Assembly: GCA_021613535.1 (NCBI GenBank) | Contig: CP075492.1 | Coordinates: forward strand, 1,984,001 to 2,048,000 | DNA length: 64,000 bases | From: Adineta vaga | Lineage: Eukaryota; Animalia; Rotifera | Direction: 5' to 3' | Part shown: positions 7,440 through 63,041 of the stretch, piece by piece | Position numbering within the stretch: the first letter of the stretch is position 1 | Layout of the letters: each line of letters begins with the position of its first letter | The notes under the pieces: model-generated | What the model was told of the DNA's origin: nothing | Databases searched by the model: none | What the model saw: only the letters and a program-made list of their open reading frames with translations | Made by a program: the position numbers and the translations under genes

Positions 7440-8040
7440 AGAATATATTATGTTATAATTCTTTTTTACATCCATCTAAACTTTTAAGATAATATGTTTA
7501 GGTGATTAGAAATTGTAAAATAAAGAGTTTAAGATATTATTGAATGTGTTTATTACTGTTATTAGAATAGGATAGGTAAACTGTGCCTATATAGATGTAA
7601 ATCAAATACTATGAAAGCTATTTTTGCTAACTGAAGGTATAAAAATGATTATCAATAGTATTCCAAGAGTAGGAAGAGAGATCAAATCTTAAAAGTCATG
7701 TCCTAAAACAATAATATTGAACGTAACTACTGAAACGAATGTGCGTCAACATTCTGCCATTTTTCTTTCGGTGGGTGTGGGTTATGAGCATAGCCTAATA
7801 CATCCACACCGAGCCTATAACCCTTTCTTTCAGAAATGGGAATATAGTATCATTAACTTTCTTTCTCAGGTGTAGAAAACTCTCGAAAAAACTGATTTAA
7901 CGCATATACAAATTATTGCATTCACAATAATTAATAAAAAGTGTATGCTCACTGACTATTCTTATTCTTTTATTTGTACTTTTCGTTTACATATTAAACA
8001 TATTAGATTTTGTAGTTCTCTTTGAAAATTCACATATATA

Positions 8041-9231
8041 TCATTTATCTCGATTAATATTATTTGTTATATATTGTCCAATTGGTATTCCAATATAAAG
8101 ACTATGAACAATACTTCCAATAGATAAAAAAACATTTCGACCAGTTTCATCAAGATTTGCCATACAACAAATAATTATAGACCAATTTTTATTTAATAAA
8201 TAATATGTCAATGTATCATAATGTTTTCGTTCACCCATATTATGAATATCATCCAGCCATTGACAACTTCCATCAGTCCATTTATAATTTCGGTGATGTT
8301 TTTCAATAAATTTAGCTTTAACGAATTGAAATGCACTGGCTGTTTTGTCAAGTGGCGATTTGAGTTGATAAGGTGATGGTATTGTAGAGATTCTTGTATC
8401 ACTTAGTGTAATCAAATCGTTTGAAATATTATCGAGCGTTTCAACAACAGACGAAGGATTTTTATATGATTCTAATGTGTTGCGAATTAATTGTAAACCA
8501 AAATCGAGTTGTTCAATAGTCCATTGACGATCTGGAAATGCAAAGGCTTTATCAGATGTTGTCATCAAATACAAATATAACCGTTTTGCTGATGTATCAT
8601 GTTCTGCATCCGGCGGATCTATGAAAATAAAGAAAATATAAAGAAGTTCATTAAATGATTCATTCTAAAATCTCAAATCTTGATAAAAAAATGGTTTTAA
8701 CATTAGAACTGGACAAGTCAATTCAAGTGAAACGTTTTTAAAATGAATTATAACAAAATCATTTCTTGTACATACGCGTTATACTCGAAACTGTATCAAT
8801 AATTTTCATATTAATTTTTGTTGATACTTGTTGATGTGGTGCTAAGTTTGTATTTTTATCTCGATTATTTCCTTGGACTATTTGTGTTATCATCCAAAAG
8901 AAGATTGCACAAATACTTGATGCATCAATTGTTGGACTACGTCGAATAAAATAAAAGAGATCATTTTTTCTTTTGCACTCATATGAGATATATCTTGTTT
9001 ATCTAATTGAGGTACACGATACCATCGATTACGTCTTTATCAAATGTTTCAATATATGCTAAACCAAAATCAATTACAAATAATTGAGTGTTCTCAACTG
9101 GATCACCATATTTTTCAAAAGTAATCATTATATTATCAGGTTTAAGATCACGATGCACGATTCCTTTCGTATGAACTCCTTCCACAATATGTAATAACTT
9201 TTCTGTAAGACTAAGTGCATCAAATAAATTT
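8041..9231 (-). pseudogene. 5'-truncated protein kinase fragment plus downstream exons
   Basis: HRDLKPDN and DFGLA in 9003-9231. No N-lobe seen. The reading frame begins at a telomere-like hairpin (9232-9295). Confidence 0.55.
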
Positions 9232-9295
9232 GGGTGTAGGTGTGGGTGTGGGTGAGAGTGAAGTAAAGAGCATACACCCACATACACCCACACCC
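9232..9295. repeat. Telomere-repeat-like hairpin (representative copy)
   Basis: GGGTGTAGGTGTGGGTGTGGGTG...CACCCACATACACCCACACCC. Confidence 0.8.
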
Positions 9296-9472
9296 TATTG
9301 TGCCATTATCAAAGACCGTAGAGCATCTATAGCACGACCATCGGCGACACGTACTTGAAGAAAGAGATTGACATCTAAAAGAATAGTGCATCGACGATTG
9401 ATGTAGTGCTCGTCAACTTCTAAGAATACAGGACACTTTCTGTAGAGATGCGTTGGCAAAAAGTCATAGATA

Positions 9473-9620
9473 CAAGGGGGGAAAAGCGCTACTCCGATAC
9501 TCCAGTCTACTCCACTCATACTCCAACGTACTCCAGCGATACTTCGCTAATACTCCAATCGTACTCTAGCGTACTCCAGAATTATTTTTGGAGTATTGGA
9601 GTAGCGCTTTTCCCCCCTTG
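9473..9620. mobile_element. 148-bp hAT-like MITE
   Basis: About 32-bp TIRs CAAGGGGGGAAAAGCGCTACTCC(G/A)ATACTCCA, exact 8-bp TSD CATAGATA (9465-9472, 9621-9628), internal TACTCC repeats. Confidence 0.85.
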
Positions 9621-9810
9621 CATAGATAGCAATGGAACATACATTGTTGAAAGCTAGTTGTTGTCTTGAAGTTAATACATCAAATTAAAATTTTCGAAAA
9701 AAAAAACCTAAAACCTCTTGCCAACTTAAAATGATAGAACCACATGAATCGAAAAAACTATGTTTTTTATTAGCAAGAAAAAATATTTGACTTTGATTGT
9801 CTCTTATAGA

Positions 9811-10452
9811 TCACGAATTTGGTTCATAAAAATTGGCCATACTTGTCATCTTCGAACTATTGGCTCTATTGGTCAGCTGGATCTGTGTCTGTCCTAGTTC
9901 TATCGATAATCTATGTTTTTCGTTAAAATCAAACAGTTCTTGTCTCAGATAAGTTTGAATACGATATCGATGAATACATAACCATCGGAACCAAACGAAT
10001 ATGATACATGCCATTGCCAAACTGGTACATCCAACTAATATATATTTTAACGTTTCAAGTTTAATTCCATTGGTGGATGAACATGCCCAAAAGATGACAG
10101 CAACAAATAGCCAAATAAAAATACCTGTGATAAGCACCAATCCAGTAAAATGACGTTTGCCGGAAGAAAACTCATATTTGATCATTAAATTATCTAATTG
10201 ATGAAGTAATTTAAAGACAATCATGAGAAAAATGATGGCGAAAAAGAGCAGTAAAAACAAATTTGCTTCAAACCAATCGCGTACACCAAATACGTTTACT
10301 TTTATGCGATCTTCAATTATGGAAACAATTGTATTACTAACATGTTGAGCTTTATCACCTATAGGATCGATTTGTTGAAAAATGCTATCCACCATTAGTT
10401 TCATCAAATCTTCAAGATTTAAGAGTTTAATTGACATGAAAGTTGATACCAT
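9811..10452 (-). CDS. Hypothetical membrane protein (about 3 TM)
   Basis: 213-aa ATG-initiated ORF with three hydrophobic stretches. Confidence 0.55.
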   Translation of the reverse strand: MVSTFMSIKLLNLEDLMKLMVDSIFQQIDPIGDKAQHVSNTIVSIIEDRIKVNVFGVRDWFEANLFLLLFFAIIFLMIVFKLLHQLDNLMIKYEFSSGKRHFTGLVLITGIFIWLFVAVIFWACSSTNGIKLETLKYILVGCTSLAMACIIFVWFRWLCIHRYRIQTYLRQELFDFNEKHRLSIELGQTQIQLTNRANSSKMTSMANFYEPNS

Positions 10453-11160
10453 TGTAATTGGATCGCTAATATGTTTTGATAAAGTTGAATTTGCAAGGAA
10501 TAGCAGTCACTTTTGTCACTCGGTTATTAGCAAACGTTCTTGACTTATATAGTATTGGAGAAGGAACGAAAATTGAAGAAAAATATAGGCAATATAGATA
10601 AATATCAGCTCCAACAATTCATCCATGACTTTTTGTGACTCATAATATCGACTTACGTACTGTACGGGCACCATTTTTCACACCTATACACGAACATATA
10701 CCTAAAGGTTTCGTACGCGTACTCAGTTTCGGTAAATTGCCTGTATACCTATTATTAACGATCCGTAACCTGTAAGAACTAGTCGTCCTGAAGATTCTTC
10801 ATCGCTCCTATAGTATACACTATAAAAATAGTATAGTGTTGTCCTTTGTGAACAGAGCTAGGATGCAAGTATTTGCGCTTGTACTTGATTTTAAAAGAAA
10901 GTTAACAGATGTGATTACTTCAATCTACTGATAGTTGATACCTTGCTGTACATTATATTCTCTCATGCTATGTGGGTGTGGGTGTGATTATGAGTGATTA
11001 AAGAGAAAACACCTACACCTACACTCACGCATTTGCTATTTCTTTCAGTTTTTATAAAGGAAAAGGAAAGGAAGAGAACATTATTTTCTACGTTATATTT
11101 TGCATTATTTAGTTTTATTCAACGTTAGCTCAAACAAAAAATACTTTGCCGACTGATGCC

Positions 11161-13451
11161 ATGGTAAAAGAAAGAACTTCTGGAGACACGACAGAAAAGC
11201 AGTGTGGCAATAATGTTCTATTTCACATTATTCTTCAGTTTTTTTAAGTAGCAACAAGAAAAAGAAACATTGCTTCTCGCAGAAATGACTATGATTTGGC
11301 CGGATAATGATATCACACACAGTGAGTATCAGCAGAAAATCTTGGATGAAAGTCGTTTTTATTTCAATGATTATAATCTACGTTTATTCAATGATCCTGA
11401 TCAATGTCTGGATTTTATAACAGATCTCCCTAAAACACAGGAAGTACTTCTTCTTATCACCAGTCGACAGCTTATCGAACAAATTATTCCGCTGATATTG
11501 ACAAACCTTTTCACGAAAACTATCAAAAGTCGGAGGTTTTCTTGATTTATTAAAGCTATTATCATATATCGTGTACCAGTAGATTTCTCTTTTCTCAAAA
11601 ATAGTAGTTTGCCTTTCAAAATGCAGCTTATGCTGTTAAAGGAAACCATCGGAAACGCAAAACCTTCGAAGAACCACTATCGCGATATTCCTTTTGTCTG
11701 TATGCGAATCTTTTAACGACTCCTTCTTTCACACGATCAGACCGATTCCGATGCTCGATGTGATATGTTTAACTATTTACGACAGAGATTCAAGGAAAAT
11801 TCATCCCAATTAGACATCATCGATAAGCTTGATCAGACGTTCCCCAGCACGTTAACCGCTATTGAATGGTATAAACGCAACACATTTCATCACGAAATAC
11901 TCAATACAGCTCTCTTCGAACAAGATCGAATGGTTTTATACAAAATGAGATTCTTCATACGACATTTGGATCACGAACTCACGAATCTTGACAATCAACA
12001 ACAATCGGCCAAGGAATAAGATACAATTATAGTTTATCATGGAAAATGCATGCGCCTTTGCGAGATTATGGATTTGAAGAATCGTGGTTCTGATACTTCT
12101 TTGCACTTTGACAATTTCCTTTCGACAGGCAGAGACCGAAAATTTGCTCGTCTCTTTGCAGAAAGTGCGTCCCAATCAAAACAATACGAAGCTGTGTTGA
12201 TGAAAGTGACGATACCACCGTTGTTGACAGATGCCGAAGTTTTTCGCTGTCCATTTGCTGATATTGTGCGTTCTGGTGATGAAGAAGACGAGACAGAAGT
12301 TCTTTTTTCTACTGGTGCTCTATTTCGCGTGCAGAAAGTAGATATAAAACATAAAGAAGCCATACTCTGTATTGTAACTGTAACATTAACTCATGATCTC
12401 GATTTCGACGATGATTGCATAGAAGATCTTCTTACTTTTTTTTAAGAAAAAAATACGACAAAATACCTTTGACACTGCTTGCACTCTCGCATCTAATGCT
12501 CGAAATGGGTGATTATGACCAAGCAGAAGAATTTATTTACCAGTTAATTCAACAATCAATGACGACGAGTGTTACGGGACCTAATAGTACGCGCTATCTT
12601 TTTCTTTCTTTACTGTTCACTATACCTAGATGATGATATCATAGATATCTCTCTCTCTCTTTTTCGAATCCTCGTTTCTTTTTTCTCAACGCGTATATAA
12701 ACATATGTGTTTTCTCTCCTAGTCAGTCATGTATATGATTCTTTCAAATAAAGGTGAATAAACCCTAACAACGAGCTATCTGATTGGTCCAGCTCTCTCG
12801 TTGCTTGGACAAATGTATACCAAACAAAAAGATTATATTAGAGCATTTCGTACCCTTGAAATAGCACTGAAATATTCACTGTCCGGTGATCGATGCTATC
12901 TATCTGACACTTGCGCAGCTCTTGGTGAAGTGCATTCAGAACGCAATGATTTCGATCGAGCTTTGTTTTATAGCAGAAAAGCCTTAGAAAACGCTGACAC
13001 TCCAGAACAGATCATTCTTCGGTGTATTGAATTCAGTATAATTCAAGAAAAGCGGAATGAATGGGACGAAGCAAAATCTTACCTAAGAAGAGCGTACGAT
13101 CAACTTCAAACTAATTTATCTAAAAACCATTCTTTATGGATTCATTACTACAAGGAGAAGGGACAAATTAAGTTCGTACGAGGAAAAATTGTTGAAGCTA
13201 CATTATTGTTCTTAATGGTTATGCATCATCCCGCACTGATATTAGCCAATCAACCGCTTACTATAGTTAACATGGCTCAACAACTAGCTAAGTTTGCAGA
13301 TACGATCGGAAATTCGGATATGGCCAAAATGCTCTGTAGCGCAGCTATCTTGATCGCTCAACATCTTCCGAAATACCATAAAGTAGGCAAAGAAACTGAA
13401 CAATATTTCATTCATATTTTTGGAAAATCGACAGATCCGCCACCAGAATAA
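11161..13451 (+). pseudogene. Receiver-like/ART/TPR paralog, copy 3, disrupted
   Basis: FNDPDQCLDFI receiver-like segment, AIEWY..., VYHGK, FLSTG, DETEVL, then TPRs. In-frame TAA at 12017-12019 and a frameshift in the T-run near 12440. The 5' end is uncertain. Confidence 0.65.
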
Positions 13452-14186
13452 AATGAGATTTCGAGAGTGGATGAGGGTGATGTGCAAATATGCTACTCTT
13501 ACCTACATCCGTCTTTGGATTTTTGTTACATATCGGAATTCTTGCTGATTCTAATGAGTTGCCAGTGTTAAAATGTCTTTTTCTTTGAACGAAACAATTT
13601 ATGCAAACTTCGTTTACGTTCAGTACGAAACGATTTTGTAGAAAAACTGAATAATGGTGATAAAGTTATTCGAATATACGTACAAAAGATTGTCGTTGGA
13701 TTAAAAAAATGCTTCGATTTCACTTCAATCGATATTTTGCATAGTGCTTCGTGTTAATTTATTATAAATTCGATAACAAGCAATTGGTAAACGAAAACAT
13801 ATATATATATATACTTATTTTTATAATTAATACAATTATTACATGTCAATCCTTGAAACATTGAAAATTTCTTAATAATTGTTTAGTTTTCTTCAATATT
13901 GTCGTATACAAACAAAAGTTTTATTTTAATGAGAACAATTTTGTTCGACTCGATGGATATGAGGGTGGATGCGAATGTGATTGGAAAATCATTACAATAA
14001 TCATACTCTCACCCTCACTTATTCTAGTATGTCAGTTTAATGACAAAACGAGTTTGAATAGTTTATTAATAAATAGAACAAAAACCAGACGGAGATTACT
14101 CTTGGATGAAGGGATTTATACGAATTGTGCAGGAAATAGATCATGTTTTTATTTTGTCAAATGATAAATCATAATCTCATTTCTAA

Positions 14187-15176: not shown

Positions 15177-16331
15177 GTTCAATAATAATTTGCTGTTGAT
15201 GACTACTTTTTTACTAAAGTTTCTCGTACATTTGATTTCTAACTAATTGCTTCTTCGAAAAAGAAAATTGTTAGAGAAACGTCTTGAGACGACAAAAGCC
15301 TCACAAACATAGATTCATATATTATCATAAAAAATATTTGAAGCCAACGAAGATTTTCTTTTTTCTCTACTTTGAACATCACATCATCCAAAGCAGAGGA
15401 TTACACGCATTTGTCGGTTATCAGAAGTTCTGTCAAAACAAACGCGTTATGCAGTATGTCGCATCATTCTTTTTTTCATTCTCATATTGTAATTAAAAAT
15501 AAAACTTCTTATTCTAAGCATAAAACTGATGTAAAATATTTATAGACTTTTATCGACTGCAAAAGTATTTAGAGAATCTGTAAGAGACGTTCAAACAAAG
15601 AGAATTAGTTTGATTCATTGAGACATACAAAAACTAATTACAATCTTTTAAAAATATCTTTTCAGACAGTTTATTGAATAAAATTCATTTTTAAGCAGCA
15701 GCAACACGAAGAATGTTCTTTGTAGTTGGATGTAGTTCCCTTGATTGAAGAGAGGGTGATACAAAAAAATAAACGAAAAAGATTTGTTTATGGCAGGTGA
15801 ACAGTTACCAATACAAAATATATTACTCACATTTGTATTCTGTAGCGGTACTCTTGAGTCTTCATGTACTTTGAAACTGAAATTCACCATGGAGTAAAGG
15901 ATTTAATTGTTATGCTAACTATTCGAATTGAGAGAGAAAGATATGAATTTGGATGTAGAGTGGCGGCTCCCACCCATCCACGCCCACACCCACTGCGCCG
16001 CAATTACGATGCAGTCGTTAAAAAAAAGGTGACATGGGTACTCACTACGTCGCTTAAACGATTATAAATAAGCAAATGATGTACGAAGAAAAAGATAGCA
16101 TACCTGAATGAGATAAGGTTTATCACTAGTTCTTTACCTTGTAGATGAATATACATACAGATAACAGAAGCATCAAATTTCGACGTTATGCATTTGAAAA
16201 AAAGCAGCTTGCAATCAGGTAGAATACGGGTCCTCTCTCTATCTATCTATCTACTCGTATGCGAACAATGAAATTGTTTCTCTTTTTAAGAGTTTTTTTT
16301 AAAATTGTAGATATTTTATAACGCTTAGAAA

Positions 16332-22102: not shown

Positions 22103-22262
22103 TTTTTTTTTCAAATTGATGTTATCGATGTAAAAGTAGTGGTAAAATAAATCTTGAGAAGAGAAGAAAAAACAATTTATTTTATAGACGCTAACTACTT
22201 CTCTCAATTCTTCTTGTCAACGTCATTTTTGTTTTCTCTGCTTGTCGTTTCGGAATTCCCTT

Positions 22263-31077: not shown

Positions 31078-32077
31078 CCCTTCATTTTCTCTGTTAGTTG
31101 CCTGTTAAAGAAAAGCAACGAACGAACAAATGAGAAAAAAGTCTTTTTTTCTTTTCTTTTGTTCAATTTATTGTGGCACGAAAAATGCCAGTATGTCAAA
31201 TAGCGTGAGCTCTCTCTATCGAAGATCTGTCTGGAAGAAGTGGAACGAGAGTGCGCTGATTGATGAATGTGTATGAGATGAAGGAAAAAAGAAAAAGACA
31301 AAAGTGAGAAGCCAAGAGTCCTCTACTAAAATACATGCACATGTGTATACAGAAGAAAAAGAGAGAGAGAGAGCATTATATCGCAGCCAACATTCTTTCT
31401 TCAAAAAGAATCGATGAAACAACAAGAAATGTGTTGTCAAAGAAATATGCTGCTTGTAGGGGAGAGAAATTATAATGAGGACATTCGCTATTGCTAACAA
31501 CTAGAAAGCTGTAATAGAAAATTCAGTTACATTGTGTACGCAGAAGCAAAATGTAAGATGACACTTTTTCTAAAACAACATGTCACGAAGGTGTCAAAGT
31601 GTACAGGGTTGAGCATTAATTTGTGCTAAGGGGTAACGCTATGATTTCAAACATAATGAGTCATTAGTTTTATACCATCTTGAGGGTGGGTATGGGTGAC
31701 GGTGGGTGGATAATATATGTATCGGAGCTTTTATTTTGTAATCGTCAAGTTTGTATTACTGAAAAAAGGCATTTACGAAAAATAGAAAAAAAAATAATAA
31801 GAAGTACAAAGGACCGGATGCGAGGTTCGAATTCCCTGCCTTGTGCATGATGCACTTTTGAGCAATTCAACCATCTAGTACTCTTAATAGATAAACGAAT
31901 ACTAGAGTGGAGATTGATTTATATATCATCAAGAAGAGGTTAGGTTCTTTTGCGTTCTCTTTATCTGTCAAAATAAACATATGTGATTGAACTTTTAAGA
32001 AAACGTTTTCTATGGAATCATAAAGGGATTTCTTAAAATTATCATTCGGTAGAAACATAAATATACTTTGACTAAAT

Positions 32078-33864: not shown

Positions 33865-34633
33865 AGTCTCTTTTGAATTATCATGCTAATTTTCTGCACA
33901 TATATTTTGTAGATAAAAGAAATATTTGAACTATTAATTCAAATCTCTTCAGTGCAAGATAGCACCGCATTCAATTTTTTTTTCGATTTTCTCCCAGCAG
34001 AAACACCTGAAAAGAGAATTGAGATATCTCTCTAATGAATTGCAAATCACGTTTTCTGATCTAAATCGTATCCGTTTGTAAAAACCTTAGACCCTCATTG
34101 ATCGGGACTGACTTGAAAATTTGAGAATAGGAGTATTCCCACTAAATTTTAGAGTCAAGTTGAACATTTATATAATAGCACGAAAAAAGTTAGTCACAAT
34201 TAGGATATCAGAAGAAAATATTAATCACTTATGGAAACGAAAACAGCTTCTTGATTTGAATAGCAGGTTCCTGAATTTTCACATGATTTTCAGTAAGAGA
34301 CCTCTGATTTTGTAAATTTGGCTTTGGCAACCCTGATAAAAATATATTTCGATCTAATTGATTATTAAAAAAAGACAAAAAGCTTCTTGAATAAACATTC
34401 AAAAAAGAAATTGAATTATTAAAGATCTTTCCAGGGAAGGAAAAAAAGCAATTCATTTCAAATAATTCGAGGGTGTGGGTGAGTTAAACTACCATGACGC
34501 GTTTCGATCTAGCTTAAGGATCTCATCAGATGACTTTGAATCCTAGTCTAAAATTACTGAAGTGTGTTAAAGAAGATATCAATGATGTAATTATTTTTTT
34601 ACGGAATGTATATCTGCTTAATTGATATGGTAT

Positions 34634-34688
34634 TGAGGGTGTGGGTGAGGGTGACAATTCATCTTCTCTTTTCCCACACCCACACTCC
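34634..34688. repeat. Telomere-repeat-like hairpin
   Basis: TGAGGGTGTGGGTGAGGGTG...CCCACACCCACACTCC. Confidence 0.75.
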
Positions 34689-35001
34689 TAAGTTTCATTC
34701 GAACAAAAATATTTAGATCCTTTACATTTTTTGTTATTTAAATAACTTTATAGAATTCTTCAATATCATCAATTACATAATCTCATACACCATGTTGAAA
34801 ATATGATTTATACATTGAAATATACGGTTTTAATGGATACATATAATGCATTTTTTGATAAAGGAAAAAGTTTAGAAACTAGAGTGTGATCGAGGGGTTA
34901 GAAAATTAGTCTTTCGTACATCCAAACTCACCCATACTCTCAAAACACAAAAATCGCTAGATAAAAAATAAAGAAAGCGAGATTATAAAGAGCAAAAAAC
35001 T

Positions 35002-36450: not shown

Positions 36451-37741
36451 TTCAGATATTTTTGTTTGGGTGAGAGTGAGGGTGAGAATTCGTTTTCTCC
36501 TTTCCCACATTCTCACCCTCACACACACACATACCATTTAGTATGCACGCTGATGAATAGAAACCTACTGGATCTTAAGTAGTATTCAGTTTCAAAGATA
36601 AAACACTATCGTTGAGGGATGAAAAGTTTCTTTCGATTATTGGATACGATTATAACAACTGTGCATTTTATTGCTATTTCTCTCAAAATATAATTCTTAA
36701 GTAGAATTATTCCTAATAAGCCCATGTATTCAAAATCGCCTCGGTTTTGATGACGAACGTGAAAGAACAATGCAAAGAAAAGATGGATGACGCGAAGAGA
36801 ACAGAGAGAAGAGATGACAGGAACGATTACACACACACACACGTATATATGTATTGTATATATATGTGATACAGCTGGAATATCCCGACAGAAAAAAAGG
36901 AAAAGTACATATAAAGAAAGGAAGGAACGACACAGGGGAGTAATCCGAATATCGAACGTCACTACATCACTGATAAAAAAGATGTCGAAACAAGAGTGAT
37001 ACAATTAAAAATAATTAACTATTTCATCTCATATTATTATTTTTTTACATTTCTATCGTTATGAAAAAGAAAAATCCAGTTGCTATTGATTTATTTTTCT
37101 TCAGAAGATGATGTAGTTTTATTTTAAATGTTTACTGGAAGAAAATGGAAAGATAGTTTAAAATACCAAAAAATATACGTGATGTATTCGAACGATATCA
37201 CTCGAAAACAAATATTCACTTATGCTTCGCAAAAATCCAGCCGGAGAGATAAGACAGAACGCAGAAAAGGCGATGACTCATACTTGGGAAAAAACCAACA
37301 CAAGAAAGAATAAATACCTAGTAAAAGACTATGTCGTATATATACGCTGTCGACTCAAATCTGGCGCAAAACGCAACACAATATTCTCCTCGCATTCATC
37401 ATTTATTTTATTTTTTTTGCAATATAAAGAACTGTTGACAGATCAAGTAATAAAATATCAGCATTGCAACGTTTCATCTAATAGTAAAGTTTAAAGAAAC
37501 CAAAGATCACTAAATTCTATGTAATTTGCTAAACATTGAGAAAACGACAACGATATGTAGTAAAAAGATAAGATATTTACTTCTGTTTTATGACTCTATA
37601 GCAGGCTGACCTGAATTCAATTTGATATAAATCAGTCTCTTTTTCATTTAGTCCATTTTCAAAAATTGTTCTATATTATGATTCTTATCGATCTTCTTCT
37701 TTGTTGTTGTTTCTTTCCGTGATAACGTTCATCAACAGTTG

Positions 37742-38293: not shown

Positions 38294-38699
38294 TTGTCAA
38301 CTAATTCAAAAACTGACTTCTAAAATAATTCAACTTCTATTAACCTTGGTTCGTGCTTTCGGTAGAGACTATCAGAGTCTAGTACGGTCTACCATTATCT
38401 ACAAGAATCCAGTTAGTCGTATGATGTTGAGAATGATGAGAGCGAAAACACATACATGTTAAGAGGCTATATCACCTGGTTGTGGGAGAGGGTGTAAAAA
38501 ACACGCATCACACTAGCATAAGAACATAGAGAGCAAAATATCTAAGATTCAGGTAGATGCCGGATAGATCCTAGTAGACTCTGATAGACTTTTATAGATA
38601 TCTAATAGATTTCTATGTATCGTTGATTAGCTATTGTACACTATAATCGATTCGTCTTGAGGGTGTGAGTACTGTTTAAATTGAGCCCACACCTAATAG

Positions 38700-41899: not shown

Positions 41900-42587
41900 A
41901 AAAATAACTGACTTAGTCAAGATTGTTTACGACAGACACGCCGGTTTTATTTCTTCCAACTTTGTCGACAGTTACCAACATCTTTTTTTTCTTTTCTTCG
42001 TCGATTCGGAGAGGAAGATAAAGAGAATAAAAAAAGTTCTACATTTAGTTGTATTAAAGAAATCTGTCGGCTATTCGTTTTATCGTAAATTGGACCCTAA
42101 AATTAAAAGAGGCGATGGTGATGTACGTTGGTATTTTTTTCTTCAACAATCTCCTGACTTCTACTCGCACCCATACCCTATGGAAATTGAATGGATGAAT
42201 TTCTAAATGTATTGAATATGTTAAAATTTGGATTTATTTTTGTTAAATTAAATGAAATAAAAATGAAGTTGTAGATTTATTCGGTAGAAGTTACTTTGCA
42301 ATTATTTGATGGTGTGAGTGAGTGTGAAGCCAAATGATTCTCACTTTCACTCTCACTCTCACCTACACCCTCGAATGAACATTTTCGTACTGATATTTTA
42401 TTCAAAGAATTTTATGTTAAGGAATAATTTCACAACATGAACTCGACTATAACATTATCTTATGAGAAAAGGATTTTAAATTAAATTAAACTTAATCTTA
42501 TAACAATTATACAAATTTTAATGAAAATATTAAAAATATCATATTTTCACAAATTGATAGTTGTCATAATTGATGTTAAGTATAATT

Positions 42588-48000: not shown

Positions 48001-51000
48001 TGAATAAATGTTTCATACTTTGATGCTATGTTTGAACATGAACATTGTAATTTTTCACCATGAATCTCTACAAGATGATGATATTCACTAATTGAAGGTT
48101 GATCATATGAGTTTGTTGTAGTTTCTGATTCAATAACATTATGAAGAATAAATATAAAATTGATAAGAATAAATAAGCCAATATAAAGACGAGTTGACCA
48201 TCGACCGAGACCTTGAGCTGACTCTCGAGTAATATTACTACTAAAATCTCGCACATGAAATAAGTTTAAACTAAATATAGTGTTAATAGAAGTTGTTAAT
48301 AATTTCCAAATGATCCTTTTCAATTTATCAAAAAACTTCAGTTGAATCACATCTAAACATAAACAAATGAAGTTTTCTTTAATGTTACTTTAATAAGAAT
48401 AACTAATCAGAATTTTTATAGAAAACACAATACTTCAAAATGAACGATTGAATCATGAGTTGCCTAATTCGAATTATAATATAAATTCACATTCAACTGC
48501 CTTATATCAATTCGAAAATAAATAGATTTAGATTTAGTTATTCTCTGTGTCATAGAGAAAACTCTTGCAAATATAAATTGCCTGCTTGCTTACTTACTTC
48601 TGTGTGAGCACTCACTGAATGGTCAAAAAAACATTTTGTACGTTATTTATTGGGACCAAGGGCGCTTTTTTCCCAGAAAAACATTTTTTTTTATAACGTT
48701 TGACAGGAGCGTTATCGAGGCAAAGAAACCGGAATTTAATAGGACGTATATTTTCAGTTATAAAAGAAATTCTAAGTCACAATTTCTAACGTAAACTAGA
48801 ACCGATGTTGAGGTTACTATTTTGGTTAGGGTGCCACGCAGGGTGTTGGCCAGTGTCTCTCGGTGAGAATCTTGCAGAGAATGTTGAGGATAGTCTCTAG
48901 TGTGGGTGCTGTAGAGGGTGTTGTCAGGAGCCCCTCAGTGAGGGTGCTTCAACGGTATTACGAACAAAATACTTTTCAATTCAAATTGGAATTGACCGCT
49001 TAGATTTAAACTGGATTCAGCGTTCAAGTTCCACACTCACACCCATCGAATAACTTAAAGATGTTCAACTTATAGAAGCGTATTTAATTGCGTCACTAAT
49101 ATAAATCAATATTTACCTAGCTCTTGTTGTGTGTGATTTTGTTCTTCGGATCGTTTTTTAACAATTCGTTTCCATAGATAAAGAATTAACTTAATAAAAA
49201 GCGGCGTAGCTAAACGCACTGAAACAATGACACCACTGATCATCGATATCAATGTTATTATTGCGTCAAAAAAATTTTTGATATGAACTCGTTTCGTATA
49301 TGTACAATGAGTTGGTGCACAGTTTTCATAAAATTTTTTGTATGAGGTAGATGAATTCCATCTTTCGATCATTATATCGGCGATGATATCTCTAATTAAC
49401 ATATCTGGATAAAAACGATCAACTGTCGAATTGTAAACAAGAGGACGAGGTTCATACCAAGAAACACGTGTAATAAGGGTATAGGTTAAGATAAATAATG
49501 TTTTTACGTGACGTAATAAACGTAGTAAACAATCCACTGAATATAAACATTCGAAGTTCGATAACATAAAAGAATCCATAGGTGAACAACTTTGCTTCCA
49601 CCCCGGCAACATATAAGAAATTGTATAAGTAGAATTCTTGTTGGAATCATAATCGTAGTTATATATAGGGGCTGGTCTTTGACAATGAGGATTAACAATA
49701 CAGACACAATCAGTAAATGTTGAATTAGTGTCATTGTTTTGCATGAAACGAAATACGAACTAGATGAAAGAAATTTACATTATCTATTTATAACGGATAT
49801 GAAAAGAGCTTTCGACTTTTAAAAATGTGCTTAATTTCATGATACTGAGAACTTCATTTAGTATATTACAGATTCCATGTATCTTTATAGTGTGTAAAAC
49901 AATGCAAAGCAAGTGTGAACTGAACTATGTATACCTCTAGTGTAGCAATCACGTTATTTAATCCCTTTTCGAACATATACAATCATTACTTTATATAAAA
50001 TGATAGAGAAGGTAAATTTTCGTAATGTTCAGTGTATTTGTCAGATTAAAATACTTACATGATGTAACAACGTAAAAAAGTGCCTCACTATGTCATATTT
50101 CCAATAAGAAGAACTTTAAAAAGATTAACGACAATTCCTTTTCACTCACTTTTGATTTCTCAAGCTTTATTACAATGAAATTGCTTACAAAACTAATCTG
50201 CTTATATATTTGAATAGTAACTTACATTCAACGAATTTGTACGATTAGTTTTATTTGATACGACGTGTGCCACTAAATTTGGATGGAACGACTGAACTAA
50301 ATGATTAGATGATTTCATATAAGGCTGATCAACGTTTTCAAGAAGACGTTCTACAGCAATGAGACGACTAAAATAGAACTTGGTTGATTGAGAAAACTGC
50401 TTGAGTATTTCATTGAATTGTGTAGAAAATTCCGTTTCAGTAGGTAAATTAGAACTAATAAAGAATTGCATCATAAATTGATCAATAGCATCCTTGACAG
50501 TCTCATTTGCCAACTTGCAAAGATCTGATAAAAATTGAAATTGTGAAAATGCTGTATTGCGCCAGTCTAGTGCAGCATAAGGGTGTACGGTCTCCTTCAG
50601 TACGTCAATCCATCGCTTGTCAATAAAATCACTCTGACATACTTGATGAAATATTGGTACTAATGAAATAATTGTTGTATAAGGTGTTACCATAGTAGAA
50701 CAAAAGCATTTCAATGTTTTAGAATATAGACTGTGTAGTTCAGTGTATTTGACTAGTAATGGTTTCTCTTCAGTTATTATCTTTATTTCATAAGTTAATA
50801 AAATAAAGAGAAAGATAGTCAGAAAGATACCTATAGTAAGAAAAGAGAAATATTCGTGTAGCGAGATTGTGTTGCTATAGTATTTAAATATTTCAAATAA
50901 ATGATGTAAAACATGTATTTTAGATAGACTTCACTATAAATACTAAAACAAGAGGCATATCAAATAAAAACAATCGTACCTATTAACAAAATTAGATAAA

Positions 51001-53629
51001 CATATGTAGTGAGCTTTTGTTCCTTAATATCGTTTTCTGTCCGTGCAATGGTATCTTTGAACAAATTCAATGCCTTAATTGACTGGACTAGTTTCTGCAT
51101 CATGCTGTTTTGTGGAACTACAATATACATTCAAACTTCAACTATTTTGTCATCTAACAGAAATTTACCAAGGTGAATTTTTTTATGCGCCAATCGATTT
51201 CTAAATTCTAAAACAACTTTGACTAAAAATGTTGTAATCAGACGAAGTATGATAATGAGACCACCATAAAGACTAATAAAAAGAGTAATCACATACGATG
51301 GATTCATCTGATCTGTTTTTGTATATGTGCAATGTAAAGGAGAACATTTGTTAAAATATTCTAAATAATTAGTTTTTATTGACCAATTGAGAATGAAGAG
51401 ATTAGATAAAAGATTTTTCACAGTAACTAGTGCTTTATTTGAAGATAAAACGCAATTACTCCAATTTGAGCTAGTCTTAAAAGAAGAAGAATTAAGGCAA
51501 AATATAAAATATTTTACATACATGATTAAGAGTTGGAAAATATTCGAACAAGAATTTGAGACAATCCATGTCATACAAACAATTAAGTCTACTTGCATAA
51601 GCAGCTTTGAGAACAGTACAGCTTGTGCGAAAACCAGTAACTTCATCGTTTTTCTGAACATCTTTCCAAGTTTTATGATTTTTTACATATGGATCGTTGG
51701 CAGTATTTGCTAGAGTAAGAGCCGCGTGCTTATTTACATCTGCATCCTTACAATAAACTTCACGTGAACCATACAGTAAAGCAGGCTTGGTAATGTATGT
51801 CTCTTGCAGTATAGCATTGTACTCATATTCACGTTTCACAATTTCCAAGAAGCCATTTGTATTTAGAGCCGATACGAGATAGTGAGCCCTATTGACTGTT
51901 CCCAAATAGTTAAGAAAAGTATAGATTTGGACAGTTGAACTATTCTTATAATATTCAATAATAGCGTTAACTTCCGATTGTATTTGTTTCTCCGTATGAA
52001 GATGAATAGTGGCTACTTCATATCTGTCAATATAAATCAGATTCGAAGCGATTGTATTTTTAGCGAGAAAACAAAAATCGGCAAGAATTGAGAACTAAAA
52101 AGACAAAAAAATAACAACAAATCATGGACTATAATATACCGAATGTTTCAACAAGGATGGTTCTATAAACATGTGATTTTTTTATCGGAAATGATAGGTA
52201 AGTACAGATACAAACAATTCGACTATTCGTTTTCTACTGATTTCGAATAGATTTAGATATATGTACGCACCAGACTCATTCATTCGAACTATCTTGAGAG
52301 TGTGGGTGTTAGTGTGGGTCAAGATATCTCTTCTCTATCCTCAACCATAGGAGGACCCAAGAGTATCCCGAGGGTGTGGGTGTGGGTGTAGAAGAGATGA
52401 GTTTACCTTCACCCACACTCTCAAAATATTGCTCAATATGGTGAAGTTCTGCAATCATCACTGGTTACCTCCTCTCCCTGCTAGTGTACTTATAAGTCAC
52501 TCACAGCCTATATGAGGTAAGAATGTATTTTAAACAAAATAATTAAAACTTACCAGATGACTAGCAGTTTTGCGAAAATCATCTAGAGGATATCGATTTG
52601 CCATTGGTGAATACAATGCTTCAATCCATTGTTTACTAATGAAAATGCTTGAACAAAGTGGGTGAAATATGACGTTGTTGTTCACAAAATCCCCCAAAGG
52701 TATAGTCGTTTTGGAACATGGACATGAAAGTGATTGATCAACATCTTGATAAAGTTTACGAAAACGAGAAGAATTAATTTCAGATACCATCCTCGTTCGA
52801 ACTTGTACTTTTGTGATTCCAATGGAAAAAATTAGATAAATACAAACTAAAATAAAATGAGAACATTTGAAAAGTTACTCTTATGGGTCCATAAAGTTTG
52901 GCTCGAGTTCAGTGTTAAGAACGGAATTGTCTACATAGTTCTTCTGTGGGAACTGCTAGGTATCTTCACCTGCTCTTGTATGGAGGTATACTCTTAAGTC
53001 TTCTAGTCTTAAAATAAAGAGTATATGTTACAGGTATGTACATACACATGCCTTCACACACTCTTCTCCGTTTGTTTTTCTACTATCATCAATACATTCT
53101 TTTTCATATGGTTTCGAATAAACAGATTGAGATTCGTCTCTCCAGTGAAGACATCACTAATATTATAGATATGTGTTCATGGTCTATTTCACGGAAATAC
53201 TATATAAGATAGCATATCAATATGCGACGTCTCTTTTGCAGAGGAATTTATTGTACAGCTTTTTCAAAATGGACTACTTGGACAGTTCGATAGTTCATTT
53301 GAACGGATTTTGTACTGCCTTCAATTATTGTTGAACAAACACTTCTTATTTAATACATAAAATAATCAATTGTTCTGATATCCTATCGATATAGTGAGGG
53401 AAAATATTCTGTTTGATCTTAGTCAAGCGCACTTTCACTTATCATTCATACTAACTAAAAAGCATTTTGTCTTACCGATGAGTAAAAAGATGTACAACCA
53501 AGTTGAATATTTTTGTTCTTTTAAGACACTTGATGATTGTTGTTTTTCAATATCATCTTCGGCTATAAACAGATTATAATCATAAATATAATTATAAAAT
53601 CTATGAAATATAGATTTCAGCTTCATCAT
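45070..53629 (-). CDS. Large multi-exon membrane protein: three tandem TM/Cys-rich ectodomain/TM modules, then TM, Thr-rich linker and FG-GAP/VCBS-repeat propeller
   Basis: Each module has NLF...T..Y..L (TM), CxCS, CxSxF, SxLECxYxxxC and (F/Y)xxCxPxxCxY plus TM. The junctions at 51168/51117, 49117/48352 and into exon 46205-45070 are in-phase GT-AG. The last exon has DLNxDGxLD repeats. Confidence 0.7.
48826..48950. repeat. Degenerate about 38-bp tandem repeat (3 units), intronic
   Basis: GGGTGTTG...CTC.GTGAG..T.TT.AGA pattern repeated three times. Confidence 0.4.
52294..52424. repeat. Compound telomere-repeat-like hairpin, intronic
   Basis: TTGAGAGTGTGGGTG (52294) is the exact reverse complement of CACCCACACTCTCAA (52410). 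A second G-arm starts at 52370. Confidence 0.75.
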
Positions 53630-54711: not shown

Positions 54712-55611
54712 TTTTCGGAATTTTATTTAGAAGAACTATAGAGAATAGACACTAACGATGTGATGATGAGCCTCTGTGATTGCGTTGTGCCTTGTGGCTA
54801 GTAGTGTATATTTAAGGTACACTCACTTATCATACAATTTCAAAGACAACTTTTTCTTTTGAGACCTTTGACTCACCTGTTGTAAATGAATCTCTGTAAT
54901 TGTCTTTTTTCTTGCTTTCTTTTTGTCTCTCTGTTATCATTTTATTTCATACGAACAGCATCATTACAGAAAAAAAACTCTTCACATTATATAAAACGAA
55001 ATGATGTTTACTAACATGAATTATATCGTACAGACTCCTTCTATCCACGTATCAGAAAGCTCTAACACCGATTCAATAATTTTCTATTGTGCGAAATTAA
55101 AAACAGTTGTAAACGCTAATTATGTCGGAAAAATGAAGCTGAAAGAGAACACTTCTACTGTATACTAGATTTTTTCGATAAGATCGCCAGCTGGAAGAAT
55201 AAAAAAAACATTTTTCTAATTCATTTAGCAGAAACCATGTAATGTTTGAACTGCTACAACTGTCAGTATTTTGAGGGTGTGTGCGGGTGAAGCTTTTTCC
55301 TCTTCTCTCAACCACACCCTAATTATTCTTGAGTATATTTTTGTTTATACAGATAAATGTCATAGATGATTCGAAGATGTATGATTATACTAGGCATAGC
55401 TAGTTGTTTTAAGATACTAATAATTTTATTTCATATTATTTATTGGTAAATATTCAAGCAAAGCGACTACGATAAAGCAAAAGTATGAGAAAGATGATTA
55501 CTTATTAGTCGTACAATAAATATGTATAAGATGAAAGAATATCATAAAACTTGCAAATTATTGGTAGATATGGCGTGCGCACGTTGATCATCAGTCAGGA
55601 AAAACGAAAGT

Positions 55612-56577: not shown

Positions 56578-57406
56578 TGTGAAAACTCAATGTTGTCGCT
56601 TAACAATAAAATTGTGTGAAATGACTATATATCACCAATTTTCTTTTCTCTTCAGAAAAATCTGTTAGTATAGTGCGAAGAAACTATGGTGACAAAGGTA
56701 AATGAGAAATATTAATAAGTATCGGTGACGGGAAAAAATTGTTTTCTCTGGTATGCACTTTTTCCTGTGACCTTTCATCGTTTCCTTTGTTTTCTGCGGT
56801 GATTATATAGAGAGAAAATACAAGCAACGTTATAGTACTCGACACTTAAACGACGAGAATAAATATTTTTCTTTGTCTAAGAAATGTTCATTTTGTCTCA
56901 TGTAAAACAAATGTCATGTTTGTTTGAATATCATCAACTCGACAAAGTCATATAGAAATCAAACAACCCATACTCTACCGACAAGATTCTTAAAAACAAA
57001 GAACGTACTACGTAACTTATCTTAGGTCAGGATTTCAGTTTTGTTCCAAAACATTAGAATAAGATACAGATGGATGAGTTATGTCGAGTGAATGTCTCAA
57101 GAGTATAGTATATACGATCAATGAAGAAATGTTTTCTAGAATAATTTTCTGTGTGTTGACAACGATTGTTTTTGCGTCATAATTCTTTATCTTTAGAATG
57201 GATTGGTTTTAATCCATCTTGAGGGTGTGAGTGTGAATGAAGAAAAGAGTTATCGTGTACACGGCTGAACAGGCACACTGACCGATTATAGCAATGTACT
57301 CACTTTTTAAATACACTAAAAAAACAACGATACACATCAATTCAATTTATTAGTTACGCAATATATGTGTGAATATTCGTTTATTTGATAATGTAAAAAA
57401 GTCAAA

Positions 57407-58457: not shown

Positions 58458-58967
58458 TTGAATAATTAAGAGAAAGGTTTTACAATTCTCTTTTCTCTTT
58501 TCTAAGTAAACATGTTTTTATCAAATGAAAGAAAATATCGATAATGATTTTTTTTTCTATATAGAATAAATATTTTCATTGATTTGATCAAATCAATAAA
58601 AATAAGTCAGTTCCAGATCGAATTCTAATGATGAGAAATATAGTGTCAATTTCCACAATAACAACATTTATTCAGCAAAATTGATGTAAAAACTAATATG
58701 TGGAAACAAGGCATCCACACCTTCAAGAATAAGAAGTGATGAGAAAAAAATACAATTTTGTGTTGTGATATATTTTTTATGCATTAGAAAATGGTCGATT
58801 GTGAGCGCCATCTATTAGATTTATTTACATTTTTTCAGGAAATATACAAGATTTTCAATGGTTATTTCGACTGTGTATAAATGATTTTTTTTCCCAGTAG
58901 CTTATTTTTATGTTTGAGAAAATATGACATAATTTATTCGTCCTAACAACAAACTAAGGACATAACA

Positions 58968-60695: not shown

Positions 60696-60907
60696 TTTGT
60701 TTTTATTGACACAAACATGATTTACTTGATAGTTTATTCAAGATTTTAACAATAAAAAGTTAATACACTAGTAGAATCGGTCAGTGTGTTCGTCCGTATA
60801 CACAGTCAACGCAACAAAAATAAAACGAACACCCTAGATAAGATTGGTCGTCTCTATCTGTAAACCGTAATTGTTAACAAGTTATGGAAAAAAAACTCCG
60901 ACATTTC

Positions 60908-61129
60908 TGTAACGATATAGTTGTATCCATTTTTCTTAATTCTTCTCTTTCTGTCAACTATATATCTCTCTCTCTCTCTCTCATTCATTTGTTCCATTCG
61001 TTCTCTTTTTTTGTTGCACTTATATAGCTGCGTGTTTCTGTCTGTAAAAGTTGCGATTTATGAGAGGAAGAAATAATTAAAGGCGTGGTCCCATCAGCGC
61101 ATACATCTTTTTCATAACATATCGTCACA
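60908..61129. mobile_element. Family A, copy 3
   Basis: Shares GAGGAAGAAATAA and CCATCAGCGCATACATCT with copy 1. TGTAACGAT...ATCGTCACA termini; TSD ATTTC/TTTTC. Confidence 0.75.
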
Positions 61130-61561
61130 TTTTCTTCGCAAAACAAAATTACAATGAATTGGAAAGTAAACGATTTTTCTCGTCTATCTGTCTCTCTTTG
61201 ATATTATATACACAGAACTAGAAGAACAGTCCTGGATTCACTGACTCATCTAACAAACGCGCTCGCTTGCGTACACTGTATACACAATAGTTGTCTTTCT
61301 ATGGAAACCAGTGCTAACCTTTTTTTTTCTTTTCTTTTCGTTGTACGAGCATATAAATATATACTCTCTGTGAGAACTATACGATTATCGAGGGAGAGAA
61401 ACAAATAAAAGGGAACTGTCAGCAGCGGAATCTTTTCTTGCATTATAAATCGTCATATACATTTGCTTACTTTTTTTAGATCACTTTAGATACTACGTTT
61501 TGATTTGTAGTAGATCTATCGATCGCCCAAGTACCTGATAAAATCAATTCATTGCTGAAAA

Positions 61562-62212
61562 ATGATGAAACAGTTTACAACGGCTTCGGAACAAATTCGC
61601 TCTGCAGTAGCTGGAGTTGTACAATCAACATCAAATATAATTACGACTGTTATACCCCCACCAAATAGAAAGGAAAATGGCATCTTAGTTTTTTATCCAA
61701 ATGTGGAGTCCAATAAGAAGGATAAATGCATCCTTTATCATAACACTCTTCTTGAACAATTTGACAAAATTACTGGTACTGAGCCTGAAAAAATCTTGAA
61801 GATTGCAGTGTATAAGACACCACTGATTCCGGTGGCGTCTTCTATTGAAATACTCTATCACGCGTATCTAGTATTGCAAACCGAAACATGGTACTACTCA
61901 TTAGAAACAAAGACACAACAGATCACATTGCAGCGATCAAAGTGTCCAGAAGATGTTCGTGATATGTACGAAGGAGCATCGCGAGGTACCGTAACTGATA
62001 ATACTGCACCTAGCCTCATAGTTGAAGCGAAAGGCGAAGGAACTATCAGAGACGTGATGGAGTATCTCTACAAAAAGCAGCGTCTGAACGTTGACTTTAA
62101 TTGGTTTTGGGAAAACTGCAAGGACATGGCCAAATGGATTTTTGACGAATTCAACTCAGAAGGAAGAACACTCAAACTCACATTCACGAAATACGGTAAA
62201 TCTGACAATTAA
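61562..62212 (+). CDS. Putative permuted papain-like (PPPDE/LRAT-type) peptidase
   Basis: YHAYLV...YSLE followed by FNWFWENCKDMA, i.e. His before the NC catalytic motif. Confidence 0.55.
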   Translation: MMKQFTTASEQIRSAVAGVVQSTSNIITTVIPPPNRKENGILVFYPNVESNKKDKCILYHNTLLEQFDKITGTEPEKILKIAVYKTPLIPVASSIEILYHAYLVLQTETWYYSLETKTQQITLQRSKCPEDVRDMYEGASRGTVTDNTAPSLIVEAKGEGTIRDVMEYLYKKQRLNVDFNWFWENCKDMAKWIFDEFNSEGRTLKLTFTKYGKSDN

Positions 62213-62605
62213 CGACACTAAAATGAAACTTAATTTTGTTTTTATTTGCGTTCATCTATTTTACGACCGATTTCAAACAACTTTATATTTCGTGAATCTT
62301 TGGATGACGCTCTTCCGATTCGTTTTCTCATATGTTTTCGTGGAGATATCATTGGTCTAGGATCATGATGTCTTGCTGTCGTTATTACGTGCTACTTCCA
62401 TAATAACGACATCCAGCTAATTTTTCCCCCTATCTACGATAGCAAGACATCATGATCGTAGACCGGTGATATCTCCGCACGAAAATATATCAATCGAGAG
62501 AGTGTCATCCAAATATTCACCAAATATAAAGTTGTGTGAAATCAGTCGTAAAATACATGAATGCGAATAAAAACAAAATAATGTTTCATTTTAGTGTCGT
62601 TATTA
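62210..62605. repeat. Long imperfect inverted repeat (about 170-bp arms) formed by two inverted MITE-like units
   Basis: 62210-62382 is the reverse complement of about 62436-62602. The terminal motif TAATAACGACA/TGTCGTTATTA occurs at 62377, 62401 and 62595. Confidence 0.85.
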
Positions 62606-62987
62606 GGGAGAAGTACTGTACTAACTAGATTTCGCTACATATTCATTTCCCGTTGAGTACAACATATACTCTCTTTCATTCTTCCATTTCTTCCGCATCT
62701 CGATGTTGCTGTATGCCCGCTTCATAAAACTCAATTGATTCCCTATTCATCTCACCGATGAAAATATTTTTTTGCAATAAAATTCATTCTATCTTCGCTA
62801 GTAGCAAAAATTCCTTTCCAGCTATGGTTATGAGACAGTTGAATACTATCCAAGCACCCTCGTTCGTCAAACTCAATTAATGAATACTTTTATTTATATA
62901 TTGTTTGAAAAAGCTTACATATACAAATTATTATAAGAGAATGTCGATGTCAGGATGAATATCAAATGAAAGCATAAGTATCTTTAA

Positions 62988-63041
62988 GAGGGTGGGTGTG
63001 GGTGACACTACACTCTTGACCAACACCCACTCACACCTTCA
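62988..63041. repeat. Telomere-repeat-like hairpin
   Basis: GAGGGTGGGTGTGGGTGA...CACCCACTCACACCTTCA. Confidence 0.7.

What the first reader, a model, noticed from the sequence alone, without database searches (positions are those of the whole stretch)
7769..63041. Dispersed family of 45-65-bp hairpins whose arms are telomere-like repeats
Seen: a G-arm of (TGTGGG/TGAGGG)2-4, a variable 15-30-nt spacer and a complementary C-arm recur about every 3 kb. Copies: 7769-7811, 9232-9295, 10971-11030, 13465-13511, 13960-14017, 15951-15991, 34634-34688, 34881-34941, 36468-36530, 38657-38697, 42311-42372, 52294-52424, 55272-55322, 62988-63041. Half sites lie at about 1486, 6399, 31681, 34469, 49030, 57220 and 58712. 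Consensus is roughly TTGAGGGTGTGGGTGTGGGTG-N-CACCCACACCCACACCCTCAA. They avoid intact coding exons and the young LTR element. Established: TGTGGG and TGAGGG are reported bdelloid telomeric repeats. Inference: a REP-like/mini-MITE family, binding sites for telomere proteins, or scars of telomerase/Penelope-RT-assisted repair of desiccation-induced breaks.
Basis: partly seen in the sequence, partly recalled or inferred. Interest (0 to 1): 0.72.

Follow-up and report, generated by a model that had tools for sequence, protein, structure and literature searches.

The report
Self-copying telomere seams at repaired breaks
This stretch of the bdelloid rotifer Adineta vaga carries about 14 short pairs of telomere-like repeats facing each other, one of them exactly where a gene was cut off mid-exon; they are likely seams where two broken, telomere-capped DNA ends were rejoined, probably by copying a short linker from an older seam or a retroelement RNA.

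Summary
In detail: 10 strong G-arm/C-arm pairs against 0 in the reverse order, about 0.1 in shuffles. The window is Adineta vaga. They are not selected hairpins or MITEs: own-arm pairing barely beats cross-pairing (p=0.037), there are no target-site duplications, and arm lengths run from 11 to 219 nt. They sit at breakpoints: 9232-9295 lies exactly where a kinase pseudogene is cut mid-exon; 7769-7811 abuts a truncated repeat; a metagenome copy replaces a foldback element's loop. The core between the arms is oriented and recurs in subfamilies at unrelated loci (24 similar pairs vs 0.3), which points to copying from a donor spanning both arms. One 'half site' (34469) is an Athena/Terminon-type hammerhead-plus-repeat 3' end. 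Best reading: repair seams of capped ends with a templated linker; the enzyme (telomerase or Athena RT) is unresolved. The scan noted this family before in other bdelloid genomes; my ten literature searches found no description of it. No genome-wide count or allele test was possible.

The parts
7769..7811 (.). G-arm/core/C-arm pair; its C-arm abuts a left-truncated dispersed repeat (7812-7844)
   Evidence: score 10.3; table 7: 17 contig ends of run X1 continue that repeat leftwards from 7810-7812 with a shared stretch that is absent left of the element (best match 7 mismatches of 19)
9232..9295 (.). Strongest pair, core with AAAGAG; sits at the mid-exon truncation of a kinase pseudogene
   Evidence: (20.1)
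7965..9230 (-). Kinase pseudogene remnant (frameshifts; everything upstream of subdomain VI missing), homology begins 2 nt from the G-arm
   Evidence: homologues align from 9230 or 9227; no hit for four upstream query pieces at the locus (best hit anywhere E=0.001, unrelated place)
10971..11030 (.). Pair, core with AAAGAG, between divergent genes
   Evidence: (11.8)
13465..13511 (.). Weak, decayed pair 14 nt after a TPR frame's stop
   Evidence: not called
13960..14017 (.). Pair downstream of a GPCR gene
   Evidence: 12.7
15951..15991 (.). Weak pair (good C-arm, poor G-arm)
   Evidence: not called
34469..34483 (+). G-arm that is the C-rich tail (minus strand) of an Athena/Terminon-type 3' end
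   Evidence: architecture as described in PMC6431247
34491..34534 (-). Minimal type-I hammerhead motif: full core, 4-bp helix II, palindromic 2-bp helix III, 5-bp helix I; 7-nt linker to the C-rich tract
   Evidence: only such motif with helix II >=4 bp in the window; other loci of the same organism share it up to 34529-34532 and one has its own G-arm and linker; not found by Rfam; cleavage untested
34634..34688 (.). Pair; core shared with 36468; may cap the truncated retroelement copy to its left (inferred)
   Evidence: D8; 17.6
34881..34941 (.). Decayed pair
   Evidence: 6.7
36468..36530 (.). Pair; core shared with 34634, flanks unrelated
   Evidence: (15.8)
38657..38697 (.). Short decayed pair; extra G-arm at 38477-38497
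   Evidence: 7.4
42311..42372 (.). Pair; extra C-arm at 42163-42179
   Evidence: 13.3
52294..52424 (.). Two units in inverted order (52294-52345 and 52367-52424), between two open frames of a long gene, likely an intron
   Evidence: (17.6)
55272..55322 (.). Pair with GAGAAGAG-type core
   Evidence: (14.1)
62988..63041 (.). Pair
   Evidence: 13.0
1481..1506 (-). Single C-arm
6393..6415 (-). Single C-arm; a 35-nt indel variant lies at 6410
   Evidence: table 5c
31681..31709 (+). Single G-arm with ATCT outer edge, directly after a piece resembling a repeat end seen in L008
   Evidence: (E=7e-5)
49029..49047 (-). Single C-arm
57220..57256 (+). G-arm with ATCT outer edge plus AAAAGAG core, no C-arm
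58711..58725 (-). Weak single C-arm

Best explanation
These head-to-head telomere-repeat pairs are likely seams of chromosome-break repair, in which both broken ends received a few telomere repeats and were then probably joined by copying a short core from a template that spans both arms. Shown: fixed G-then-C order, no target-site duplication, free arm length, position at breakpoints in three cases, cores that recur at unrelated loci, and an Athena/Terminon-type hammerhead end in one cluster. Inferred steps: (1) a break; (2) telomerase or the Athena reverse transcriptase adds 2-30 repeats to each 3' end, which gives G-arm left and C-arm right; (3) two G-rich overhangs cannot pair with each other, so one primes on the C-rich strand of a donor (an older seam, as DNA or as transcript, or a Terminon 3' tail) and copies core plus some C-rich repeat; (4) that C-rich tail anneals to the other overhang and the gap is sealed. 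Ends of one break give an insertion or small replacement; ends of two breaks give a deletion, as at the kinase. Single arms would be one-sided events or decayed pairs. The seams then decay neutrally and survive only outside working exons.
For: Order 10 vs 0. No TSD: mean 2.64 nt vs 2.76 +/- 0.34 (14 pairs). Arm lengths 11-219 nt, uneven even among copies with the same core; left/right correlation rho 0.29, p=0.09. 9232: kinase homology starts at 9230, inside a stretch that is one open frame in homologues P0092, P0093 and P0095, and the upstream part is absent. 7769: truncated repeat at the arm edge. L068: the seam replaces the roughly 95-nt loop kept by a related foldback copy beside it. L060: seam starts directly after codons homologous to 18 relatives, and an exon-like frame with a splice donor goes on behind it (p=0.035, suggestive only). 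Cores: 24 of 1035 pairs score >=7 vs 0.29 in shuffles (max 3), 7 clusters, flanks no more alike than background; a 9-nt core with both junctions in phase in 6 of 37 metagenome loci, an identical 16-nt core in 2. ATCTT precedes 7 of 37 and 3 of 13 GAG-starting outer edges, background 0.25%. Hammerhead end at 34469 and another locus with G-arm + AGAGAA-containing linker + the same hammerhead. Neotelomeres and Athena pieces at deletion breakpoints are reported in A. vaga (PMC13564844, passage).
Against: Only 2 of 14 window pairs have a flank whose former state I could read; the rest are untestable non-coding DNA. No empty allele was seen. A shared core is also what a mobile element family gives. 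The core null (letter shuffle) does not keep arm-phase letters at core ends, so it overstates the excess for some clusters. Only 1 of 23 sites has a hammerhead. In 54.7 kb flanking the metagenome copies only 2 further pairs scored >=8, one of them in a non-rotifer-looking contig, so the high density may be local. The metagenome copies were selected by a pattern that fixes 13 nt of each arm, and their rotifer origin is inferred (L024 matches window ART-TPR genes; others by resemblance only). PMC5405514 reports not finding TERT in A. vaga (passage); I recall that Gladyshev and Arkhipova 2007 cloned it (recalled; paper not held).
Confidence: 0.55

Rival explanations
1. Same seams, but made by telomerase alone: the core is read-through into telomerase RNA beside the template, followed by plain end joining (vertebrate TERC-ITS type B).
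For: One dominant purine core (AAAGAG in 12 of 50) and a non-telomeric ATCT outer edge could be the two neighbours of one template; outermost units are more often TGAGGG than inner ones (11:5 vs 7:14, p=0.049). Type B and head-to-head loci exist in vertebrates (PMC8537989, passages).
Against: Both core junctions are fixed in 6 of 37 loci, and distinct 11-nt and 16-nt cores recur at unrelated loci; one RNA with random joining predicts one sequence with ragged ends. Rotifer telomerase RNA was not found in my search.
Confidence: 0.2
2. A tiny non-autonomous DNA element (MITE/REP-like) with telomere-like terminal repeats, moved by a transposase.
For: Shared oriented cores and subfamilies, recurrent ATCTTGAGGG edge, dispersed non-coding positions, apparently clean insertion in L060.
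Against: No TSD; arms uneven, 11-219 nt; weak arm covariation; flank loss at 9232, 7769 and L068.
Confidence: 0.14
3. Selected cis-acting paired sites for a telomere-binding or KLF/Sp-type protein (GGGTGTGGG resembles the CACCC box; recalled), acting as boundary, promoter or telomere-seed elements.
For: Roughly one site per intergenic interval here; strict orientation; 0 of 23 in long frames.
Against: No preference among convergent, divergent, tandem and intronic positions; one copy destroys an exon; very low density around metagenome copies; decayed copies are common.
Confidence: 0.08
4. Chance juxtaposition of GT-rich microsatellites.
For: One C-arm runs into a (CA)n tract (36468).
Against: 9 pairs vs 0.39 by random placement, 0 in reverse order; shared cores.
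Confidence: 0.01

Closest known systems
Short interstitial telomeric sequences inserted at double-strand breaks in vertebrates, including TERC-ITS (PMC8537989, passages read; PMC2246262 and PMC7215372, listing only)
   Same: Few telomere repeats at internal sites, no TSD, flank deletions, extra templated sequence beside the repeats; head-to-head form occurs.
   Different: Head-to-head is 3 of 41 loci there and the main form here (14 pairs, 9 single arms); density here is one per few kb; the core lies between two arms and recurs in several versions; its source RNA is unknown.
Athena elements / Terminons of bdelloid rotifers (PMC6431247 and PMC8557442, passages; original papers not held)
   Same: 3' end = hammerhead followed by (ACACCC)n or (TCACCC)n that pairs with G-rich overhangs; copies 5'-truncated by short telomeric stretches. 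34469-34534 has this layout. A published A. vaga hammerhead is followed by AACUCUCUUUU (PMC4209133 supplement), whose complement resembles the purine core (by eye, not tested).
   Different: 22 of 23 sites have no hammerhead; none has a retroelement body that I could detect; Terminon chains are head-to-tail, these are head-to-head.
Neotelomeres at deletion breakpoints in A. vaga (PMC13564844, passages)
   Same: Telomeric repeats and Athena fragments at break sites, said to leave scars.
   Different: One-sided caps; no paired, re-joined form or shared core is mentioned in the passages read; the supplement was not held as text.
MITEs and bacterial REP palindromes (features recalled)
   Same: Short, dispersed, palindromic, non-coding.
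   Different: No TSD, no fixed length or termini, weak arm covariation.

Membership tests
MITE | Target-site duplication | tested here: not met
   2.64 vs 2.76 +/- 0.34 nt, 14 pairs
MITE | Matched terminal inverted repeats and uniform length | tested here: not met
   own partner ranks 1-13 of 14, p=0.037; arms 11-219 nt
MITE | Autonomous partner with the same ends | not testable with these tools
   no genome held
Break-inserted short ITS | Host telomeric repeat at internal sites | tested here: met
   TGTGGG is the A. vaga repeat (PMC8494291 passage)
Break-inserted short ITS | Insertion with flank deletion or replacement, no TSD | tested here: met
   9232, 7769, L068; 2 of 14 window pairs readable
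Break-inserted short ITS | Empty orthologous or allelic locus | tested here: inconclusive
   only a related sister copy in L068 and protein homologues; no second allele to compare
TERC-ITS | Flank copied from telomerase RNA | not testable with these tools
   no rotifer telomerase RNA sequence found
Athena/Terminon 3' end | Hammerhead directly 5' of a C-rich telomeric tract | tested here: met
   site 34469 only
Athena/Terminon 3' end | The same feature at the paired elements | tested here: not met
   relaxed hammerhead scan: 0 of the other 22 window sites, 0 of 37 metagenome loci
Athena/Terminon | Athena RT and accessory ORFs upstream | tested here: not met
   29 long frames scanned: RT domain only in the LTR element; no long frame at 34535-34633
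microRNA or other Rfam family | Match above gathering score | tested here: not met
   best is mir-297, 29.8 bits vs 90, E=0.37

The most novel reading that the evidence does not exclude
Bdelloids have a self-templating end-joining route: any existing head-to-head seam is a ready-made splint for two freshly telomere-capped ends, because its two strands match both G-rich overhangs. Seams would therefore propagate their core without a transposase, as a minimal replicator riding on telomere capping and Athena reverse transcription, and turn capped fragments back into whole chromosomes after mass breakage.
Probability: 0.3. Interest if true: 0.82.

Novelty: new variant of a known kind. Interest (0 to 1): 0.52.

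Why it matters
How bdelloids rebuild shattered chromosomes, and how foreign DNA and rearrangements enter their subtelomeres, is an open question. If these are repair seams, every copy marks a past germ-line break, so break history can be mapped from sequence alone, and the core tells which template was used. It gives a sharp prediction for induced-break experiments and a sequence lead to the unknown rotifer telomerase RNA or to the Terminon linker. The general idea (telomere repeats inserted at breaks) is known from vertebrates, and this scan has noted the family in other bdelloids, which caps the score.

Tried and rejected
No whole genome was held, so copy number and enrichment could not be measured genome-wide. 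Allele test: 34300-38800 is covered by one full-length contig per DNA run with no differences, and 9592-14071 by single contigs, so there was no second allele; none of the joints shown (15 of 23, 3) skips an element. Expression: no RNA holder listed; the guessed RNA run X15 gave no informative cover of a pair. Viral contigs: 0 hits for the pair pattern, 4 chance hits for arm + hammerhead. Prokaryote genomes: 56 hits for the core motif, fewer than the 139 expected by chance, none with arms. Of 120 metagenome loci, 80 with GC >= 0.48 were set aside as other things; of the 40 low-GC ones, L033 and L058 (not rotifer-like) and L119 (duplicate of L044; still counted) were dropped. A 3'-end (terminator) role was considered and dropped once strands were tallied. 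G-U bias to one strand: RNA folds favour + in 9 and - in 6 of 15, no pattern sought further. L107 looked like a cut coding exon, but no homologue was found. Joints linking arms to paralogues of neighbouring genes are too few to show positional conservation. The two original Athena/Terminon papers and the 'Telomerase lost?' review were not held.
Full report
Setting. The window is 33% GC and holds ART-TPR, NHL, FG-GAP, kinase, GPCR, glyoxalase and DUF5695 frames and an intact LTR retrotransposon. A window kinase piece is identical to an Adineta vaga protein on a 20.35-Mb scaffold, and the glyoxalase's closest named relatives are Adineta. Several genes are broken by stops. Papers report more TEs, foreign genes and TGTGGG in such regions (PMC8494291, PMC7943196, PMC11258130; passages).

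The observation. All listed sites are present. G-then-C pairs number 9 against 0.39 by random placement and 0 in reverse order; a second matrix gives 10 vs 0, shuffles about 0.1. Four listed pairs are weak. None of 23 sites overlaps the 43 long frames tested (14.1 expected; the interrupted kinase frame was left out). The pairing is real and not a microsatellite effect.

Not selected hairpins, not MITEs. A G-arm fits its own C-arm only slightly better than another copy's (21.1 vs 19.3, p=0.037; own partner ranks 1 to 13 of 14). Flanking direct repeats are at background. Rfam gives nothing above threshold. Copies lie between convergent (7769, 13465, 13960, 38657), divergent (10971, 15951) and tandem genes (34634, 34881, 42311, 55272), in a likely intron (52294) and at an exon break (9232).

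Relatives. 80 are GC-rich and of two other kinds (long bacterial-looking palindromes; TTAGGG/TGAGGG palindromes), set aside. 40 are AT-rich, many with rotifer-like genes (origin inferred), and show the same layout with mostly TGAGGG. Arms are 11-219 nt and uneven. Their 54.7 kb of flanks hold only 2 more pairs at score >=8, so the density seen in the window is not general to those contigs.

The core is templated. Cores are purine-skewed on one strand (0.43 vs 0.25 +/- 0.03) and hold AAAGAG in 12 of 50 cases vs 0.5. Among 46 cores of 8 nt or more, 24 of 1035 pairs are similar vs 0.29 in 200 shuffles, in 7 clusters, two of them inside the window (34634/36468; 42311/52367), with unrelated flanks. 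Six of 37 metagenome loci have a 9-nt core with both junctions in the same phase; two share a 16-nt core. The shuffle does not keep arm-phase letters at core ends, so some clusters are softer than the count suggests. Outer edges often read ATCTTGAGGG (7 of 37 and 3 of 13 GAG-starting edges; background 0.25%). Fixed junctions on both sides of a core need a template that spans both arms (inference).

They sit at breaks. At 9232-9295 kinase homologues align up to 9230, two bases from the G-arm, inside what is one continuous frame in P0092, P0093 and P0095; the upstream part is found neither beyond the element nor elsewhere in the window. The automatic gene model bridges this with an unrelated upstream frame (P0089). 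At 7769-7811 the C-arm touches a dispersed repeat whose other copies (17 contig ends in run X1) go on leftwards with shared sequence that is missing here. In L068 the seam stands on the axis of a 283-nt inverted repeat and replaces the loop that a related copy beside it keeps. In L060 it begins right after conserved codons, and an exon-like frame ending in a splice donor follows (p=0.035, suggestive). The other 12 window pairs had no readable flank, and no second allele was available.

An Athena/Terminon end in the cluster. The 'half site' at 34469 is followed by an antisense minimal hammerhead (34491-34534): complete core, 4-bp helix II, palindromic helix III, matching the description for rotifer Penelope-like elements (PMC4209133, parts 1-2 of 4 and supplement hits). 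Other loci of the organism share it, one with its own G-arm and an AGAGAA-containing linker. [quoted passage not shown] So a G-rich 3' end was exposed here and used as a primer (inference); the next G-arm at 34634 may cap that copy. No other site has a hammerhead, so the pairs are not themselves Terminon ends.

Mechanism. G-arm left and C-arm right is the order that two capped ends give when joined. Two G-rich overhangs cannot anneal. If one primes on the C-rich strand of an older seam (DNA or transcript) or on a retroelement tail, it copies the core and some C-rich repeat, which can then pair with the other overhang. This one model covers order, free arm length, no TSD, flank loss, single arms and recurring cores. 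Steps 1-4 are inferred; no enzyme was tested. PMC5405514 did not find TERT in A. vaga (passage), whereas I recall a cloned bdelloid TERT; Athena RT is the alternative. I put 0.75 on 'seam of capped ends' overall and 0.55 on the version with a donor-copied core.

What is known. Vertebrate break-inserted ITS are the closest kind; head-to-head is rare there (3 of 41; PMC8537989, passages). In A. vaga, telomeric repeats and Athena pieces are reported at deletion breakpoints (PMC13564844, passages; supplement not held as text, and its fig. S25 may bear on this). Ten searches returned no description of a dispersed head-to-head family with shared cores in bdelloids; the two original Athena/Terminon papers were not held and may mention it. 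This scan's own notes record the family in Adineta steineri and Rotaria, mostly as repair scars; they moved me to test breakpoints and are not counted as support.

Verdict. Real, a new variant of break-inserted telomeric sequence, already noted by the scan on other DNA. New here: a base-precise exon truncation, core subfamilies that argue for copying from a donor, and a hammerhead-bearing retroelement end inside a cluster. Interest 0.52.

Noticed in passing
window 22263-31077: Young LTR retrotransposon: identical 166-nt LTRs, CCCTT target duplication, intact gag and pol frames, and a third 566-aa frame without a Pfam match.
   Followed up: partly
window 7812-7844: Short dispersed repeat, many copies in the genome's run contigs, here truncated on the left by the seam.
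   Followed up: partly
window 9470-9623: Small MITE-like element with 35-nt inverted ends and internal TACTCCA repeats.
   Followed up: no
window 62192-62620: Long imperfect palindrome (129-nt and 53-nt arm pairs, about 85% complementary).
   Followed up: no
window 32960-33857 and 60903-61465: Two copies of a foldback/MITE-like family.
   Followed up: no
window 6430-16027 and 34300-38800: Run contigs cover these stretches as single haplotypes at about half the depth seen at 1-6000, as if hemizygous; contig depth is a rough measure.
   Followed up: no
window 6627-7439 and 16329-18878: Glyoxalase-like gene with many bacterial relatives and an intron-poor, GC-richer DUF5695 gene: likely horizontally acquired.
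   Followed up: partly
window 2090-6346, 11252-13451, 19883-22216, 39095-41926: Five ADP-ribosyltransferase/TPR-type genes, some interrupted by stops.
   Followed up: no
L002, L003, L005 and about 50 more GC-rich loci: A family of long, nearly perfect palindromes (about 105 nt, core GAGGGTGAGGGTGATCGGG) in bacterial-looking contigs; REP-like, unrelated to the finding.
   Followed up: no
L001, L016, L029, L030, L034, L070, L095 and others: GC-rich contigs with head-to-head TTAGGG/TGAGGG palindromes, possibly algal; a parallel case in another lineage. One search for a description found none.
   Followed up: partly
L010:122-2837: Bacillithiol-synthesis-like frames (by resemblance) next to a seam in an AT-rich contig, perhaps a transferred gene pair in a rotifer.
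   Followed up: no
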